64,000 bases of DNA from Escherichia coli. Lineage in GTDB: Bacteria; Pseudomonadota; Gammaproteobacteria; Enterobacterales; Enterobacteriaceae. Below, piece after piece: positions 8,073-11,000 of this stretch; within the stretch, counting starts at the first letter, position 1; each line of letters begins with the position of its first letter. A program made the position numbers. The DNA is taken from NCBI RefSeq assembly GCF_003334305.1, contig NZ_QOWS01000002.1, one strand, 5' to 3'.

Positions 8073-11000
8073 TAATTTCTTGCGTTATTTTCGGCACCTT
8101 TTATGTAGCGAAGGTGCCGGAATATATTCTCTTTTGTTACTTATTTCTATACCGTGCACAATATTTTTATCCCTCATATTTATAGGGTAAATTACCTGTA
8201 AAGTAGTGTCTAATTACCCGCCTCGCAAACTCCAGTTTTCAAATATCTATTTCAGGTCAAAAGATTGAATTATTCACTGGAGACGATTCGTAAATTCGCT
8301 GGATTTTTGACTAAAGTTTCTTTAGGATTTGTCTCATCGTATGATTAATTACACCAATCGTTCAACGTCTTGCTGATAAGTGATGGCGATTATATGAGGT
8401 TAGCAATGCCTTCTGGAAATCAGGAACCCCGCCGCGATCCTGAATTAAAACGTAAAGCCTGGCTGGCGGTTTTTCTTGGTTCTGCACTTTTCTGGGTGGT
8501 TGTCGCACTGCTGATTTGGAAAGTGTGGGGATAACTATGGTCGGTCAGGAGCAACTGGAGTCGTCACCATTATGCCAGCATAGTGACAATGAAACAGAAA
8601 CGAAACGGGAATGTTCCGTCGTTATTCCAGACGACTGGCAACTAACATCGCAGCAGCAAGCCTTTATAGAACTGTTTGCTGAAGATGATCAGCCGAAACA
8701 ATAATTATCATCATTCTTATTACCCATTTTTAATGAATTAAAGGGCTTTTAATACACCGCAGCAATAACAGCTTGAGTTATCTCAACACAAAATAATAAC
8801 CGTTAAGGGTGTAGCCTATGATCAACACAAATATGAAATATTGGTCCTGGATGGGCGCGTTTTCTCTGTCGATGCTCTTCTGGGCCGAACTCCTCTGGAT
8901 CATTACTCACTGATCCTTGACCCCGCTGCGGCGGGGTTGTCATTTGCTTTGCCACAAGGTTTCTCCTCTTTTATCAATTTGGGTTGTTATCAAATCGTTA
9001 CGCGATGTTTGTGTTATCTTTAATATTCACCCTGAAGAGAATCAGTGCTTCGCAACCCTGTCATTAAGGAGGAGCTATGTCGTCAACCCTACGAGAAGCC
9101 AGTAAGGACACGTTGCAGGCCAAAGATAAAACTTACCACTACTACAGCCTGCCGCTTGCTGCTAAATCACTGGGCGATATCACCCGTCTGCCCAAGTCAC
9201 TCAAAGTTTTGCTCGAAAACCTGCTGCGCTGGCAGGATGGTAACTCGGTTACCGAAGAGGATATCCACGCGCTGGCAGGATGGCTGAAAAATGCCCATGC
9301 TGACCGTGAAATTGCCTACCGCCCGGCAAGGGTGCTGATGCAGGACTTTACCGGCGTACCTGCCGTTGTTGATCTGGCGGCAATGCGCGAAGCGGTTAAA
9401 CGCCTCGGCGGCGATACTGCAAAGGTTAACCCGCTCTCACCGGTCGACCTGGTCATTGACCACTCGGTGACCGTCGATCGTTTTGGTGATGATGAGGCAT
9501 TTGAAGAAAACGTACGCCTGGAAATGGAGCGCAACCACGAACGTTATGTGTTCCTGAAATGGGGAAAGCAAGCGTTCAGTCGGTTTAGCGTCGTGCCGCC
9601 AGGCACAGGCATTTGCCATCAGGTTAACCTCGAATATCTCGGCAAAGCAGTGTGGAGTGAATTGCAGGACGGTGAATGGATTGCTTATCCGGATACACTC
9701 GTTGGTACTGACTCGCACACCACTATGATCAACGGCCTTGGCGTGCTGGGGTGGGGCGTGGGTGGGATCGAAGCAGAAGCCGCAATGTTAGGCCAGCCGG
9801 TTTCCATGCTTATCCCGGACGTAGTGGGCTTTAAACTTACCGGTAAATTACGTGAAGGTATTACCGCCACAGACCTAGTTCTCACTGTTACCCAAATGCT
9901 GCGCAAACATGGCGTGGTGGGGAAATTCGTCGAATTTTATGGTGATGGTCTGGATTCACTACCGCTGGCGGATCGCGCCACCATTGCCAATATGTCGCCA
10001 GAATATGGTGCCACCTGTGGCTTCTTCCCAATCGATGCTGTAACCCTCGATTACATGCGTTTAAGCGGGCGCAGCGAAGATCAGGTTGAGTTGGTCGAAA
10101 AATATGCCAAAGCGCAGGGCATGTGGCGTAACCCGGGCGATGAACCGATTTTTACCAGTACGTTAGAACTGGATATGAATGACGTTGAAGCGAGCCTGGC
10201 AGGGCCAAAACGCCCACAGGATCGCGTTGCACTGCCCGATGTACCAAAAGCATTTGCCGCCAGTAACGAACTGGAAGTGAATGCCACGCATAAAGATCGC
10301 CAGCCGGTCGATTATGTTATGAACGGACATCAGTATCAGTTACCTGATGGCGCTGTGGTCATTGCTGCGATAACCTCGTGCACCAACACCTCTAACCCAA
10401 GTGTGCTGATGGCTGCAGGCTTGCTGGCGAAAAAAGCCGTAACTCTTGGCCTCAAGCGGCAACCGTGGGTCAAAGCGTCGCTGGCACCAGGCTCGAAAGT
10501 TGTTTCTGATTATCTGGCAAAAGCGAAATTGACACCGTATCTCGACGAACTGGGGTTTAACCTTGTGGGATACGGTTGTACCACCTGTATTGGTAACTCT
10601 GGGCCGCTGCCCGATCCTATCGAAACGGCAATCAAAAAAGGCGATTTAACCGTCGGTGCAGTGCTGTCCGGCAACCGTAACTTTGAAGGCCGTATCCATC
10701 CGCTGGTTAAAACCAACTGGCTGGCCTCGCCGCCGCTGGTGGTTGCCTATGCGCTGGCGGGAAATATGAATATCAACCTGGCTTCTGAGCCTATCGGCCA
10801 TGATCGTAAAGGCGATCCGGTATATCTGAAAGATATCTGGCCATCGGCACAAGAAATTGCCCGTGCGGTAGAACAAGTCTCCACAGAAATGTTCCGCAAA
10901 GAGTACGCAGAAGTTTTTGAAGGCACAGCAGAGTGGAAGGAAATTAACGTCACACGATCCGATACCTACGGTTGGCAGGAGGACTCAACCTATATTCGCT

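What the first reader, a model, noticed from the sequence alone, without database searches (positions are those of the whole stretch)
8406..8704. Tandem small ORFs ymiA (42 aa) and yciX (55 aa) in the long acnA upstream region
The cysB-acnA gap is about 1 kb. Within it two short ORFs are separated by only 2 nt (TAA at 8532-8534, ATG at 8537), suggesting translational coupling. ymiA encodes a single hydrophobic helix and yciX is acidic. ymiA is invisible in the ORF track because of the size cut-off.
Basis: partly seen in the sequence, partly recalled or inferred. Interest (0 to 1): 0.3.

Follow-up and report, generated by a model that had tools for sequence, protein, structure and literature searches.

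The report
Known ymiA–yciX small-protein gene pair
These are two already annotated small E. coli genes (a 46-residue membrane protein and a 55-residue soluble protein) at the start of a three-gene small-protein operon; the finding is ordinary, but their almost touching stop and start codons are conserved across the enterobacteria, so the two proteins are probably made together.

Summary
ATG 8406 to TAA 8534 and ATG 8537 to TAA 8704 are open frames 2 nt apart in the 1001-nt cysB–acnA gap. They are the annotated E. coli genes ymiA and yciX.

Two corrections:
- RefSeq, two ribosome-profiling studies and a tryptic peptide put the E. coli ymiA start at ATG 8394 (46 aa, not 42).
- A third small gene, ymiC (8818–8913), belongs to the same published operon and was missed.

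It has ribosome footprints, mass-spectrometry detection, membrane localisation and PhoQ-dependent induction at low Mg2+.

My comparison of 80 or more enterobacterial loci adds several points:
- yciX is not limited to Escherichia. It follows ymiA in 79 of 80 Enterobacteriaceae loci and in Erwinia-type loci.
- yciX is under purifying selection (dN/dS 0.31, against about 1.2 in shifted frames).
- It keeps a C-terminal motif, P-x-x-W-x-L-T-x-x-Q-x-x-F-I.
- Its ATG lies −1 to +4 nt from the ymiA stop in every locus, with a Shine-Dalgarno sequence inside the last ymiA codons.

Translational coupling is therefore well supported by architecture but has not been tested. Acidity is peculiar to the Escherichia protein. 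No functional link to acnA is supported. Verdict: already known, low to moderate interest.

The parts
8089..8122 (+). cysB terminator-like hairpin. It separates cysB from the small-protein operon.
   Evidence: Terminator scan. A hairpin at the same place is kept in other genera with different sequence (alignment).
8200..8372 (+). Conserved non-coding upstream region, presumed promoter and regulatory region of the operon. It includes the palindrome CTAAAG-TTT-CTTTAG (8311-8325) and a weak PhoP-box-like repeat (8315-8331).
   Evidence: 28-genus alignment shows long near-invariant blocks. Palindrome found. The PhoP-box pattern matches only with 3 mismatches, which is chance level. [quoted passage not shown] The promoter itself is not mapped here.
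8373..8405 (+). 33-nt ultra-conserved block just before the conserved ATG of ymiA (codons -11 to -1). It contains the E. coli start ATG 8394 and the GAGG Shine-Dalgarno sequence (8396-8399) that serves ATG 8406.
   Evidence: Variability at codon positions 1/2/3 is 0.08/0.135/0.10 with no third-position excess. ATA and AGG are identical in 78 of 78 loci. Variability is about 0.45 further upstream and 0.15/0.11/0.43 downstream. Not explained by stable RNA structure (z = +1.0).
8394..8534 (+). ymiA coding sequence as annotated and as supported by experiment in E. coli (46 aa). The family-wide conserved core is 8406-8531 (42 aa). It is a single-pass membrane protein with a basic N-terminal tail and a transmembrane segment at residues 24-42.
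   Evidence: RefSeq annotation; NCBIfam NF000536; start-site literature; PRM mass spectrometry at 1000-3000 copies per cell (PMC12529367); hydropathy; coding periodicity.
8527..8539 (+). Coupling junction: GGGG (8527-8530, inside the Trp-Gly codons of ymiA), the ymiA stop TAA (8532-8534), the spacer CT, and the yciX ATG (8537-8539).
   Evidence: Sequence. Gap distribution over 80 loci is -1:1, 0:3, 1:13, 2:58, 3:2, 4:3. Anti-SD pairing is -5.5 kcal/mol here and at most -4.7 in all 80 loci, against 21% of background positions at -4 or better.
8537..8704 (+). yciX coding sequence (55 aa). It is soluble. The N-terminal half is poorly conserved and predicted disordered.
   Evidence: RefSeq annotation; dN/dS 0.31 against 1.18 and 1.28 in shifted frames; AlphaFold2 model with one helix at residues 38-47.
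8624..8677 (+). Conserved core of YciX (residues 30-47, IPDDWQLTSQQQAFIELF). Family motif: (I/V)P-x-x-W-x-L-(T/S)-x-x-Q-x-x-F-I-(D/E)-x-F.
   Evidence: Invariant P31 W34 L36 Q40 F43 I44. Variability at codon positions 1/2/3 is 0.22/0.15/0.50, so the constraint is on the protein and not on the DNA. pLDDT is 85-91.
8745..8947 (+). Rfam STnc180 element. It is the 3' part of the operon transcript and carries ymiC and the terminator.
   Evidence: cmscan gives 198 bits against a gathering score of 50. It is found in 13 of 16 other loci.
8818..8913 (+). ymiC coding sequence (31 aa, small membrane protein), the third gene of the operon.
   Evidence: RefSeq annotation; NCBIfam NF041484; variability by codon position 0.34/0.23/0.48; epitope-tagged protein detected (PMC6001520).
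8918..8949 (+). Terminator-like hairpin plus T-rich tail after ymiC, upstream of acnA (ATG 9077).
   Evidence: Terminator scan.

Best explanation
The region is the 5' two-thirds of the known E. coli small-protein operon ymiA-yciX-ymiC, which lies between cysB and acnA.

ymiA encodes a single-pass inner-membrane protein. It is 46 aa in E. coli, and the conserved core is the last 42 aa. It has a basic cytoplasmic N-tail followed by one transmembrane helix.

yciX encodes a 55-aa soluble protein. Only its C-terminal ~25 residues are constrained; they form a short amphipathic helix with the motif P-x-x-W-x-L-T-x-x-Q-x-x-F-I. The N-terminal half is a variable, probably disordered spacer.

The yciX start codon sits 2 nt after the ymiA stop, and its Shine-Dalgarno sequence (GGGG) is formed by the last Trp-Gly codons of ymiA. 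A ribosome finishing ymiA is therefore released on top of the yciX initiation site. The most likely mechanism is translational coupling (termination-reinitiation, or local hand-over to the embedded SD), which ties YciX output to YmiA output. The operon is switched on by envelope and Mg2+ stress signalling.

Shown here or in the literature:
- ORFs, annotation, purifying selection, the conserved junction and SD.
- YmiA translation, abundance and membrane location.
- PhoQ-dependent transcription.

Inferred:
- Coupling (I put it at about 0.65).
- That the two proteins act together.
- Any biochemical function.
For: Identity:
- 100% match to RefSeq ymiA, yciX and ymiC.
- NCBIfam YmiA and YmiC hits above cut-off.

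Real proteins:
- ymiA codons 1-41 have variability 0.15/0.11/0.43 by codon position.
- yciX has dN/dS 0.31 against about 1.2 in shifted frames. Its motif codons show 0.22/0.15/0.50.
- YmiA is detected by ribosome profiling, epitope tag and PRM mass spectrometry.

Module:
- yciX follows ymiA in 79 of 80 Enterobacteriaceae loci and in Erwinia-type loci.
- It also does so in four distant loci, including one outside the cysB-acnA neighbourhood.

Coupling architecture:
- The gap is -1 to +4 nt in 80 of 80 loci, and 2 nt in 58, even though the frame relation differs. One distant locus has a TGATG overlap.
- The SD inside the ymiA terminal codons has pairing of -4.7 kcal/mol or better in all loci.

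Operon and regulation:
- A reporter upstream of the operon is PhoQ-dependent and induced at low Mg2+, while the region just upstream of ymiC is inactive (PMC11429745).
- ymiC is described as lying on the yciX 3'UTR without its own promoter (bioRxiv 10.1101/2020.05.05.079178).
Against: - No experiment shows that yciX translation depends on ymiA translation.
- I found no direct protein-level evidence for YciX in the searchable literature.
- yciX has its own SD and the junction is not sequestered in stable structure (z = +0.5), so independent initiation is possible. One distant locus (L090) has a 13-nt gap with a GAGGA SD.
- Salmonella enterica subsp. enterica and arizonae keep ymiA and ymiC but have deleted the yciX motif. 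YmiA therefore does not strictly need YciX.
- An AlphaFold2 run on a paired YciX-linker-YmiA alignment gave no sign of a complex (pTM 0.26).
- Comparative data (conserved ATG and SD at 8406, no coding periodicity upstream) sit uneasily with the experimentally assigned start at 8394.
Confidence: 0.8

Rival explanations
1. Both genes are real and share a transcript, but yciX is translated independently from its own Shine-Dalgarno sequence. On this view the tight spacing reflects operon compaction, not mechanistic coupling.
For: - An SD-like GGGG sits 6-9 nt upstream of the yciX ATG in all loci.
- No significant mRNA structure masks the yciX initiation region (z = +0.5).
- Locus L090 has a 13-nt spacer with a strong GAGGA, so the pair can work with a normal intergenic SD.
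Against: - The spacing is held at -1 to +4 nt in 80 of 80 loci across many genera, while the sequence and frame relation drift. That is tighter than compaction alone requires.
- The SD is only moderate (-5.5 kcal/mol).
Confidence: 0.25
2. YmiA is a mildly toxic small membrane protein and YciX is its co-translated antagonist or regulator, an antitoxin-like pair.
For: - Overexpressing YmiA alone gives a prolonged lag of about 8-10 h and longer cells, and a start-codon mutant abolishes the effect (PMC11429745).
- The two genes are tightly linked and co-inherited, even in a different neighbourhood.
Against: - Salmonella enterica keeps ymiA after deleting the yciX motif.
- Six of the seven small proteins that slowed growth on overexpression in that study are membrane-associated, so the phenotype may be unspecific.
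- The co-fold gave no complex.
- No PADLOC hit.
- Deleting ymiA has no phenotype.
Confidence: 0.1
3. The ORFs are leader or regulatory ORFs whose translation tunes acnA expression.
For: - The ORFs lie in the long region upstream of acnA.
- From my recollection of Cunningham, Gruer and Guest 1997, which I could not check here, the distal acnA promoter P1 starts about 407 nt upstream of acnA. That would fall inside yciX, near 8670.
Against: - A terminator-like hairpin follows ymiC.
- The yciX motif is constrained as protein, not as DNA.
- The pair occurs after cysB in a locus without acnA (L088) and in an unrelated context (L087).
- Both proteins are under purifying selection over their length or core, unlike typical leader peptides.
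Confidence: 0.04
4. yciX is not a functional gene. It would be a chance ORF or the remnant of a split pseudogene, as the old names yciX_1 and yciX_2 (my recollection) and the fused database proteins might suggest.
For: - The word-index homolog search found only Escherichia and Shigella relatives.
- There is no Pfam, NCBIfam or PDB match.
- Some database proteins of 90-97 aa fuse YmiA and YciX sequence.
- I found no direct evidence for the protein.
Against: - Profile and syntenic searches find the family across Enterobacteriaceae and Erwinia-type genomes.
- dN/dS is 0.31 and there is a protein-level motif.
- ORF length is 55-57 aa in 74 of 80 loci.
- The fused proteins are frameshift or deletion variants that read part of ymiA in the wrong frame.
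Confidence: 0.02

Closest known systems
E. coli K-12 ymiA (b4522), yciX (b4523) and ymiC: the annotated ymiA-yciX-ymiC operon
   Same: - The sequence is identical to RefSeq records that carry these annotations.
- Same neighbours: topA, cysB, acnA and ribA.
- Published properties: low-Mg2+ and PhoQ-dependent induction, membrane location of YmiA and YmiC, and an overexpression lag for YmiA (PMC11429745).
   Different: - Nothing differs in sequence.
- The literature I could search does not describe the order-wide YciX family, its motif or the conserved junction.
Other stress-induced small-protein gene pairs with touching or overlapping reading frames in E. coli: mgtS-mgtT and yriA-yriB
   Same: - They are small ORFs in one operon, induced at low Mg2+ through PhoQ/PhoP.
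- The stop and start are adjacent or overlapping (PMC11429745).
- One partner is a small membrane protein.
   Different: - No sequence relationship was tested or is expected.
- ymiA-yciX has a 2-nt gap instead of an overlap.
- The second protein is 55 aa and soluble, with a conserved C-terminal helix.
- The pair is conserved into Erwinia-type genomes.
Classical translational coupling by termination-reinitiation in bacterial operons, for example trpE-trpD and trpB-trpA in E. coli (my own knowledge)
   Same: - The stop of the upstream gene is within a few nucleotides of the downstream start.
- The SD lies inside the upstream coding sequence.
   Different: - Dependence of yciX translation on ymiA translation has not been measured.
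- No masking RNA structure is predicted.
Rfam RF02079 STnc180 (enterobacterial sRNA candidate)
   Same: Window 8745-8947 matches the whole model at 198 bits. The element is conserved in 13 of 16 loci tested.
   Different: - It lies downstream of the finding, not in it.
- It contains the protein-coding ymiC ORF. The 'sRNA' is therefore at least also a small-protein mRNA or the operon's 3' end.

Membership tests
YmiA family (NCBIfam NF000536, Pfam PF22868 YmiA-like) | Match to the curated family HMM above its cut-off | tested here: met
   96.8 bits against a cut-off of 30. Residues 5-46 match model positions 1-42 of 42. Homologs carry PF22868.
YmiA family (NCBIfam NF000536, Pfam PF22868 YmiA-like) | One transmembrane helix preceded by a basic tail; invariant R-K-A-W and F-W...W..W residues | tested here: met
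   Hydropathy is 2.54 over residues 24-42. Invariant columns are R22 R28 K29 A30 W31 F35 S38 L40 F41 W42 W50 W53 in the 54-aa numbering. Membrane localisation of GFP-YmiA is published.
YmiA family (NCBIfam NF000536, Pfam PF22868 YmiA-like) | Position directly downstream of cysB | tested here: met
   cysB lies upstream in the window and in 78 of the 80 fetched loci; the other two are cut off before it.
YciX (RefSeq 'protein YciX' / 'YciX family protein') | Sequence identity to the named RefSeq protein | tested here: met
   The window ORF 8537-8704 coincides with the CDS annotated yciX, WP_001297116.1, in a record that is 100% identical.
YciX (RefSeq 'protein YciX' / 'YciX family protein') | Match to a curated profile (Pfam or NCBIfam) | tested here: not met
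   No NCBIfam release 20 family at E <= 0.01. No Pfam family at E <= 0.001 for the protein or any of 36 family members. No curated model seems to exist in these libraries, so this says nothing against membership.
YciX (RefSeq 'protein YciX' / 'YciX family protein') | Family motif derived here, P-x-x-W-x-L-(T/S)-x-x-Q-x-x-F-I, near the C-terminus of a 50-60 aa protein encoded directly after ymiA | tested here: met
   P31 W34 L36 Q40 F43 I44 are invariant. There are 71 library representatives, nearly all 50-60 aa. A YmiA-like ORF lies upstream in every context examined.
Translationally coupled gene pair | Upstream stop and downstream start overlap or lie within a few nucleotides | tested here: met
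   The gap is 2 nt in the window and -1 to +4 nt in 80 of 80 loci.
Translationally coupled gene pair | Both ORFs on one transcript | not testable with these tools
   Published reporter data and dRNA-seq statements support one operon. No transcript data could be analysed here.
Translationally coupled gene pair | Downstream translation depends on translation of the upstream ORF | not testable with these tools
   This needs nonsense or start-codon mutants of ymiA with a YciX reporter. No such experiment was found.
PhoP regulon (direct target) | PhoP box (T/G)GTTTA-N5-(T/G)GTTTA at the promoter | tested here: inconclusive
   There are only 3-mismatch matches, at 8308-8324 and 8319-8335. Such matches are common (171 in the window, 125 expected by chance). 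PhoQ dependence of the reporter is published, but whether PhoP acts directly is open.
Rfam RF02079 STnc180 (for the downstream part of the operon) | Covariance-model score above the gathering threshold | tested here: met
   198 bits against 50, with a full-length match at 8745-8947.
Known anti-phage defence or toxin systems (PADLOC) | Match to any PADLOC-DB model | tested here: not met
   No hit for YmiA, YciX or YmiC at E <= 0.1.

The most novel reading that the evidence does not exclude
YmiA and YciX form an order-wide (Enterobacterales), translationally coupled two-protein module. In this reading the only constrained part of YciX, its C-terminal helix motif, docks onto a conserved partner. 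That partner could be the YmiA tail or another envelope-stress component.

In addition, ymiA translation would be governed by the 33-nt ultra-conserved element at 8373-8405. This element evolves as RNA or DNA, not as codons, and offers alternative start codons at codon -11, -4 and 0. The N-terminus of YmiA, and perhaps its level, would then be regulated and would differ between genera.
Probability: 0.25. Interest if true: 0.45.

Novelty: already known. Interest (0 to 1): 0.22.

Why it matters
The genes, their expression and the membrane location of YmiA are already in the databases and the literature. The finding itself adds nothing new.

What may help people who work on bacterial small proteins is the comparative picture:
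- yciX currently looks like an Escherichia-only orphan with no profile in Pfam or NCBIfam. It is in fact a conserved partner of ymiA across the enterobacteria.
- It has a defined functional motif and a conserved coupling junction.
- The ymiA start region carries an unusually conserved non-coding-type element.

These points give concrete, cheap experiments for a pair of stress-induced proteins whose function is still unknown: motif mutants, coupling mutants and start-codon mutants.

Tried and rejected
1. 'yciX is an Escherichia-specific orphan.' The word-index protein search suggested this. I rejected it after tblastn on syntenic loci, HMM searches and the search of all library representatives.

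2. 'ymiA and yciX were once one gene, or are joined by frameshifting.' The 90-97 aa database proteins read part of ymiA in the yciX frame or carry deletions. They are rare variants and not a conserved fusion.

3. Function by homology for YciX. Pfam, NCBIfam, PDB sequences (best E = 0.66) and PADLOC gave nothing. I did not run a fold search, because the model is a single helix with mean pLDDT 69.

4. Direct YciX-YmiA complex. AlphaFold2 on a paired-ortholog YciX-linker-YmiA alignment gave pTM 0.26. Motif confidence was no higher than in the monomer. This is inconclusive, because no contact or PAE output is available.

5. RNA structure as the reason for the conserved 5' block, or as a coupling device. 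Neither the leader (z = +1.0) nor the junction (z = +0.5) folds better than shuffled sequence.

6. PhoP box. Only chance-level matches were found.

7. Sigma-70 promoter scan. It found no plus-strand promoter in 8000-9150, so the operon promoter is not located.

8. acnA P1/P2 mapping and E. coli transcription-start data. The papers or supplements are not held. The position of P1 inside yciX rests on my recollection only.

9. DNA-level (promoter) constraint as the cause of the yciX motif. Rejected by the third-position variability within the motif.
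Full report
**1. Observation**

Reading the window directly confirms the coordinates:
- ATG 8406-8408 runs in frame to TAA 8532-8534 (42 codons).
- Two nucleotides (CT) follow.
- ATG 8537-8539 then opens a 55-codon frame that ends at TAA 8702-8704.
- cysB ends at 8075 and acnA starts at 9077, so the gap is 1001 nt.

ORFs this short are abundant by chance: 99 ORFs of at least 20 aa overlap this 6-kb stretch. The case for real genes has to come from annotation, conservation and experiment.

**2. Identity**

The 1-kb gap matches 5,422 of 5,426 complete E. coli genomes at 95% identity or more. RefSeq annotates three small genes in it:

| Gene | Window coordinates | Length |
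|---|---|---|
| ymiA | 8394-8534 | 46 aa |
| yciX | 8537-8704 | 55 aa |
| ymiC | 8818-8913 | 31 aa |

- YmiA and YmiC match curated NCBIfam models above their cut-offs. YciX matches no NCBIfam or Pfam model.
- Rfam's STnc180 covers 8745-8947, which includes ymiC and a terminator-like hairpin at 8918-8939.

It used an old ymiA start and missed the third gene.

**3. The ymiA start**

The TetRP paper and its supplement list three annotations (PMC4909307):
- the 2014 record starts at TTG 8370 (54 aa);
- the profiling signal falls at the ATG 12 nt upstream of the 2006 start, which is 8394 (46 aa).

Other evidence points the same way:
- A tryptic peptide, LAMPSGNQEPR, shows initiation upstream of 8406.
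- Profiling with stalled initiation complexes also concluded that the protein likely begins MRLAMP (bioRxiv 10.1101/511675).
- Targeted mass spectrometry quantified YmiA (46 aa) at roughly 1,000-3,000 copies per cell (PMC12529367).

My comparison of 78 orthologous loci gives a more nuanced picture:

| Candidate start | Conserved as ATG | Anti-SD pairing |
|---|---|---|
| Codon 0 (8406) | 78 of 78 loci | -5.6 to -6.6 kcal/mol in every locus (GAGG SD) |
| Codon -4 (8394) | 55 of 78 loci | family median -2.5 kcal/mol |
| Codon -11 | 68 of 78 loci (CTG in Escherichia) | no SD |

- From codon +1 onward, variability at codon positions 1/2/3 is 0.15/0.11/0.43, a normal coding signature.
- Over codons -10 to -1 it is 0.08/0.135/0.10. 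This stretch is near-invariant at all three positions, and the changes that do occur fall at positions 1 and 2.
- Upstream of codon -12, variability is about 0.45 at all positions.

The 42-aa core is therefore what the family conserves as protein, and it matches the 42-position NCBIfam model. E. coli evidently starts four codons earlier. The 33 nt before the conserved ATG behave like a conserved nucleic-acid element. It is not explained by stable RNA folding.

**4. yciX is a real and widely conserved gene**

The word-index protein search returned only Escherichia and Shigella relatives. That was a sensitivity limit.
- In 80 loci fetched with a YmiA alignment, tblastn finds a YciX-like ORF directly after ymiA in 79. 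Identity outside Escherichia is 32-60%.
- The same holds in Erwinia-type loci.
- A profile search of 1.84 billion representatives found 71 members, nearly all 50-60 aa.

Selection acts on the protein:
- In its own frame, yciX has a median dN/dS of 0.31. The two shifted frames give 1.18 and 1.28.
- The constraint is concentrated in residues 30-47. P31, W34, L36, Q40, F43 and I44 are invariant.
- Variability by codon position there is 0.22/0.15/0.50, and Pro31 uses all four codons. The motif is therefore selected as protein, not as promoter DNA.
- The N-terminal half is almost free to vary (0.50/0.51/0.60), yet it stays open and of similar length. The protein is 55-57 aa in 74 of 80 loci.

AlphaFold2 predicts one confident helix at residues 38-47 (pLDDT 85-91 for residues 31-50) and disorder elsewhere.

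E. coli YciX is acidic (pI 4.05, net charge -9), but this is the family extreme. The median net charge is +2.

The gene can be lost. Salmonella enterica subsp. enterica and arizonae have an internal deletion of about 99 nt that removes the motif, while subsp. diarizonae keeps the ORF.

**5. The junction**

The yciX ATG lies -1 to +4 nt from the ymiA stop in all 80 loci:

| Gap (nt) | -1 | 0 | 1 | 2 | 3 | 4 |
|---|---|---|---|---|---|---|
| Loci | 1 | 3 | 13 | 58 | 2 | 3 |

- The relative reading frame changes between loci, so it is the proximity that is kept.
- Given the frame fixed by the motif, an in-frame ATG in that small interval is expected by chance in only a few per cent of loci.
- The last two ymiA codons (Trp-Gly, TGG GGN) supply a GGGG 6-9 nt upstream of the ATG. 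Pairing with the anti-SD is -5.5 kcal/mol in E. coli and -4.7 or better everywhere, whereas 21% of background positions reach -4.
- A distant locus has a TGATG overlap. Another has a 13-nt gap with a GAGGA SD.
- The junction is not predicted to be structured.

This is the standard architecture of translational coupling. The dependence itself has never been measured.

**6. The pair is a module and is not tied to acnA**
- Four distant YciX-like proteins all have a YmiA-like ORF immediately upstream (HMM E-values 7e-12 to 5e-26).
- In L088 the pair follows cysB and is followed by ribA, with no acnA at the locus.
- In L087 the pair lies among unrelated genes: a LysR-type regulator, an ABC ATPase and an MFS transporter.
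- A terminator-like hairpin follows ymiC.
- Both proteins are under protein-level selection.

Together these points argue against the idea that the ORFs exist to regulate acnA. I recall that the distal acnA promoter was mapped about 407 nt upstream of acnA, which would fall inside yciX. I could not verify this, and it would not change the conclusion.

**7. What is published about function**

In low Mg2+, ymiA and ymiC show increased ribosome occupancy at their start sites (PMC11429745). The same paper reports:
- GFP-YmiA and GFP-YmiC are at the membrane.
- Deleting ymiA has no phenotype.
- Overexpressing YmiA causes a prolonged lag and longer cells, and this depends on its start codon.

Other reports:
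- YmiC was detected by epitope tagging (PMC6001520).
- The Salmonella gene labelled 'yciX' is listed in the Cpx regulon (PMC6374596). Since yciX is deleted there, I infer that this label refers to the ymiA ortholog.
- yciX mRNA falls on LolCDE inhibition (PMC5105897).
- I found no study of the YciX protein itself.

From sequence alone I cannot show a PhoP box. Only chance-level matches exist. The 170 nt upstream of ymiA is, however, strikingly conserved, including a palindrome at 8311-8325.

**8. Mechanism, with likelihoods**

Identity and gene structure are close to certain. The best-supported mechanism has three parts:
- A stress-induced transcript starts in the conserved upstream region and ends after ymiC.
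- Ribosomes translate ymiA, inserting a single-pass, N-in membrane protein.
- On terminating, they reinitiate or hand over at the yciX ATG 2 nt downstream, so that YciX is made in proportion to YmiA.

I put coupling at about 0.65 and independent initiation from the embedded SD at about 0.25-0.3.

Co-inheritance suggests that YciX acts with YmiA. This remains unproven:
- the paired AlphaFold2 run gave no complex (pTM 0.26);
- Salmonella enterica does without YciX.

An antitoxin-like role is possible but weakly supported (about 0.1).

**9. Verdict**

The finding is a correct recognition of known genes, with an outdated length for one of them and one gene missed. The experiments it proposes are largely done for YmiA. 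The added comparative results are useful details rather than a discovery:
- an order-wide YciX family with a defined motif;
- a conserved coupling junction;
- a conserved non-coding-type block at the ymiA start;
- loss of yciX in Salmonella.

Novelty: already known. Interest: low to moderate.

Noticed in passing
window 8373-8405: The 33 nt immediately upstream of the family-wide conserved ymiA ATG (8406) are almost invariant across 78 species at all three codon positions. ATA and AGG are identical in 78 of 78 loci. The few changes fall at codon positions 1 and 2. This looks like a nucleic-acid element and not like coding sequence, even though E. coli starts translation inside it (ATG 8394) and most other genera have an in-frame ATG at its 5' edge.
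   Followed up: partly
window 8200-8372: Long, near-invariant non-coding blocks lie upstream of ymiA across about 28 genera. Examples are TCAAnTATnTATTT...GTCAAAAGATT, GTAAATTCnCTGG and the palindrome CTAAAG-TTT-CTTTAG at 8311-8325. This suggests several regulator sites. The sigma-70 scan found no plus-strand promoter, and the PhoP-box matches are at chance level.
   Followed up: partly
window 8745-8947 (and L003, L006, L011, L033, L085 and others): The Rfam 'sRNA' STnc180 coincides with the ymiC coding sequence plus its terminator. ymiC has a coding signature and a detected protein. The Rfam family is therefore at least partly a small-protein mRNA or the 3' end of the operon. It is absent from the Erwinia-type and more distant loci.
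   Followed up: partly
L085, L086 and L043 (about 3160-3260) compared with L033: Salmonella enterica subsp. enterica and arizonae carry an internal deletion of about 99 nt that removes the conserved yciX motif and leaves a 15-codon remnant. Subsp. diarizonae keeps an intact yciX with a GTG start directly after the ymiA stop. I infer that genes called 'yciX' in Salmonella papers are really the ymiA ortholog.
   Followed up: yes
L087 2400-2760; L088 2300-2670: The ymiA-like and yciX-like pair also occurs outside the usual setting. In L088 it follows cysB with ribA downstream and no acnA. In L087 it lies between an ABC ATPase gene and an MFS transporter gene in a metagenome contig. In L087 the gene caller over-extended the yciX-like ORF across the uncalled ymiA-like ORF.
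   Followed up: partly
proteins P0004, P0003, P0013, P0038, P0201, P0188, P0202: Public collections hold 87-100 aa 'fusions' of YmiA and YciX sequence. One cluster, P0004, has 37 members. Those I inspected read part of ymiA in the yciX frame or lack the transmembrane segment, so they look like indel variants or assembly errors. P0201, with a YmiA N-tail joined to a YciX-like C-terminus, might be a genuine natural fusion.
   Followed up: partly
window 8537-8620 (YciX residues 1-28): The N-terminal half of YciX has switched from basic in most genera to strongly acidic in Escherichia. Family median net charge is +2, and E. coli is at -9. The C-terminal motif is unchanged.
   Followed up: no
records H2, H11 and H25 (E. 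coli strains H32, STS73-1-E, MEI008): Some E. coli genomes carry IS1 insertions in the cysB-acnA gap. In strain MEI008 only 57% of the gap remains, and ymiA and yciX are not annotated there, so natural knock-outs of the pair exist.
   Followed up: no
window 8599-8620, minus strand: The scan reports a terminator-like hairpin on the minus strand inside yciX (GACGGAACATTCCCGTTTCGTT followed by a T-rich tail). It is probably a chance match. No minus-strand gene ends there.
   Followed up: no
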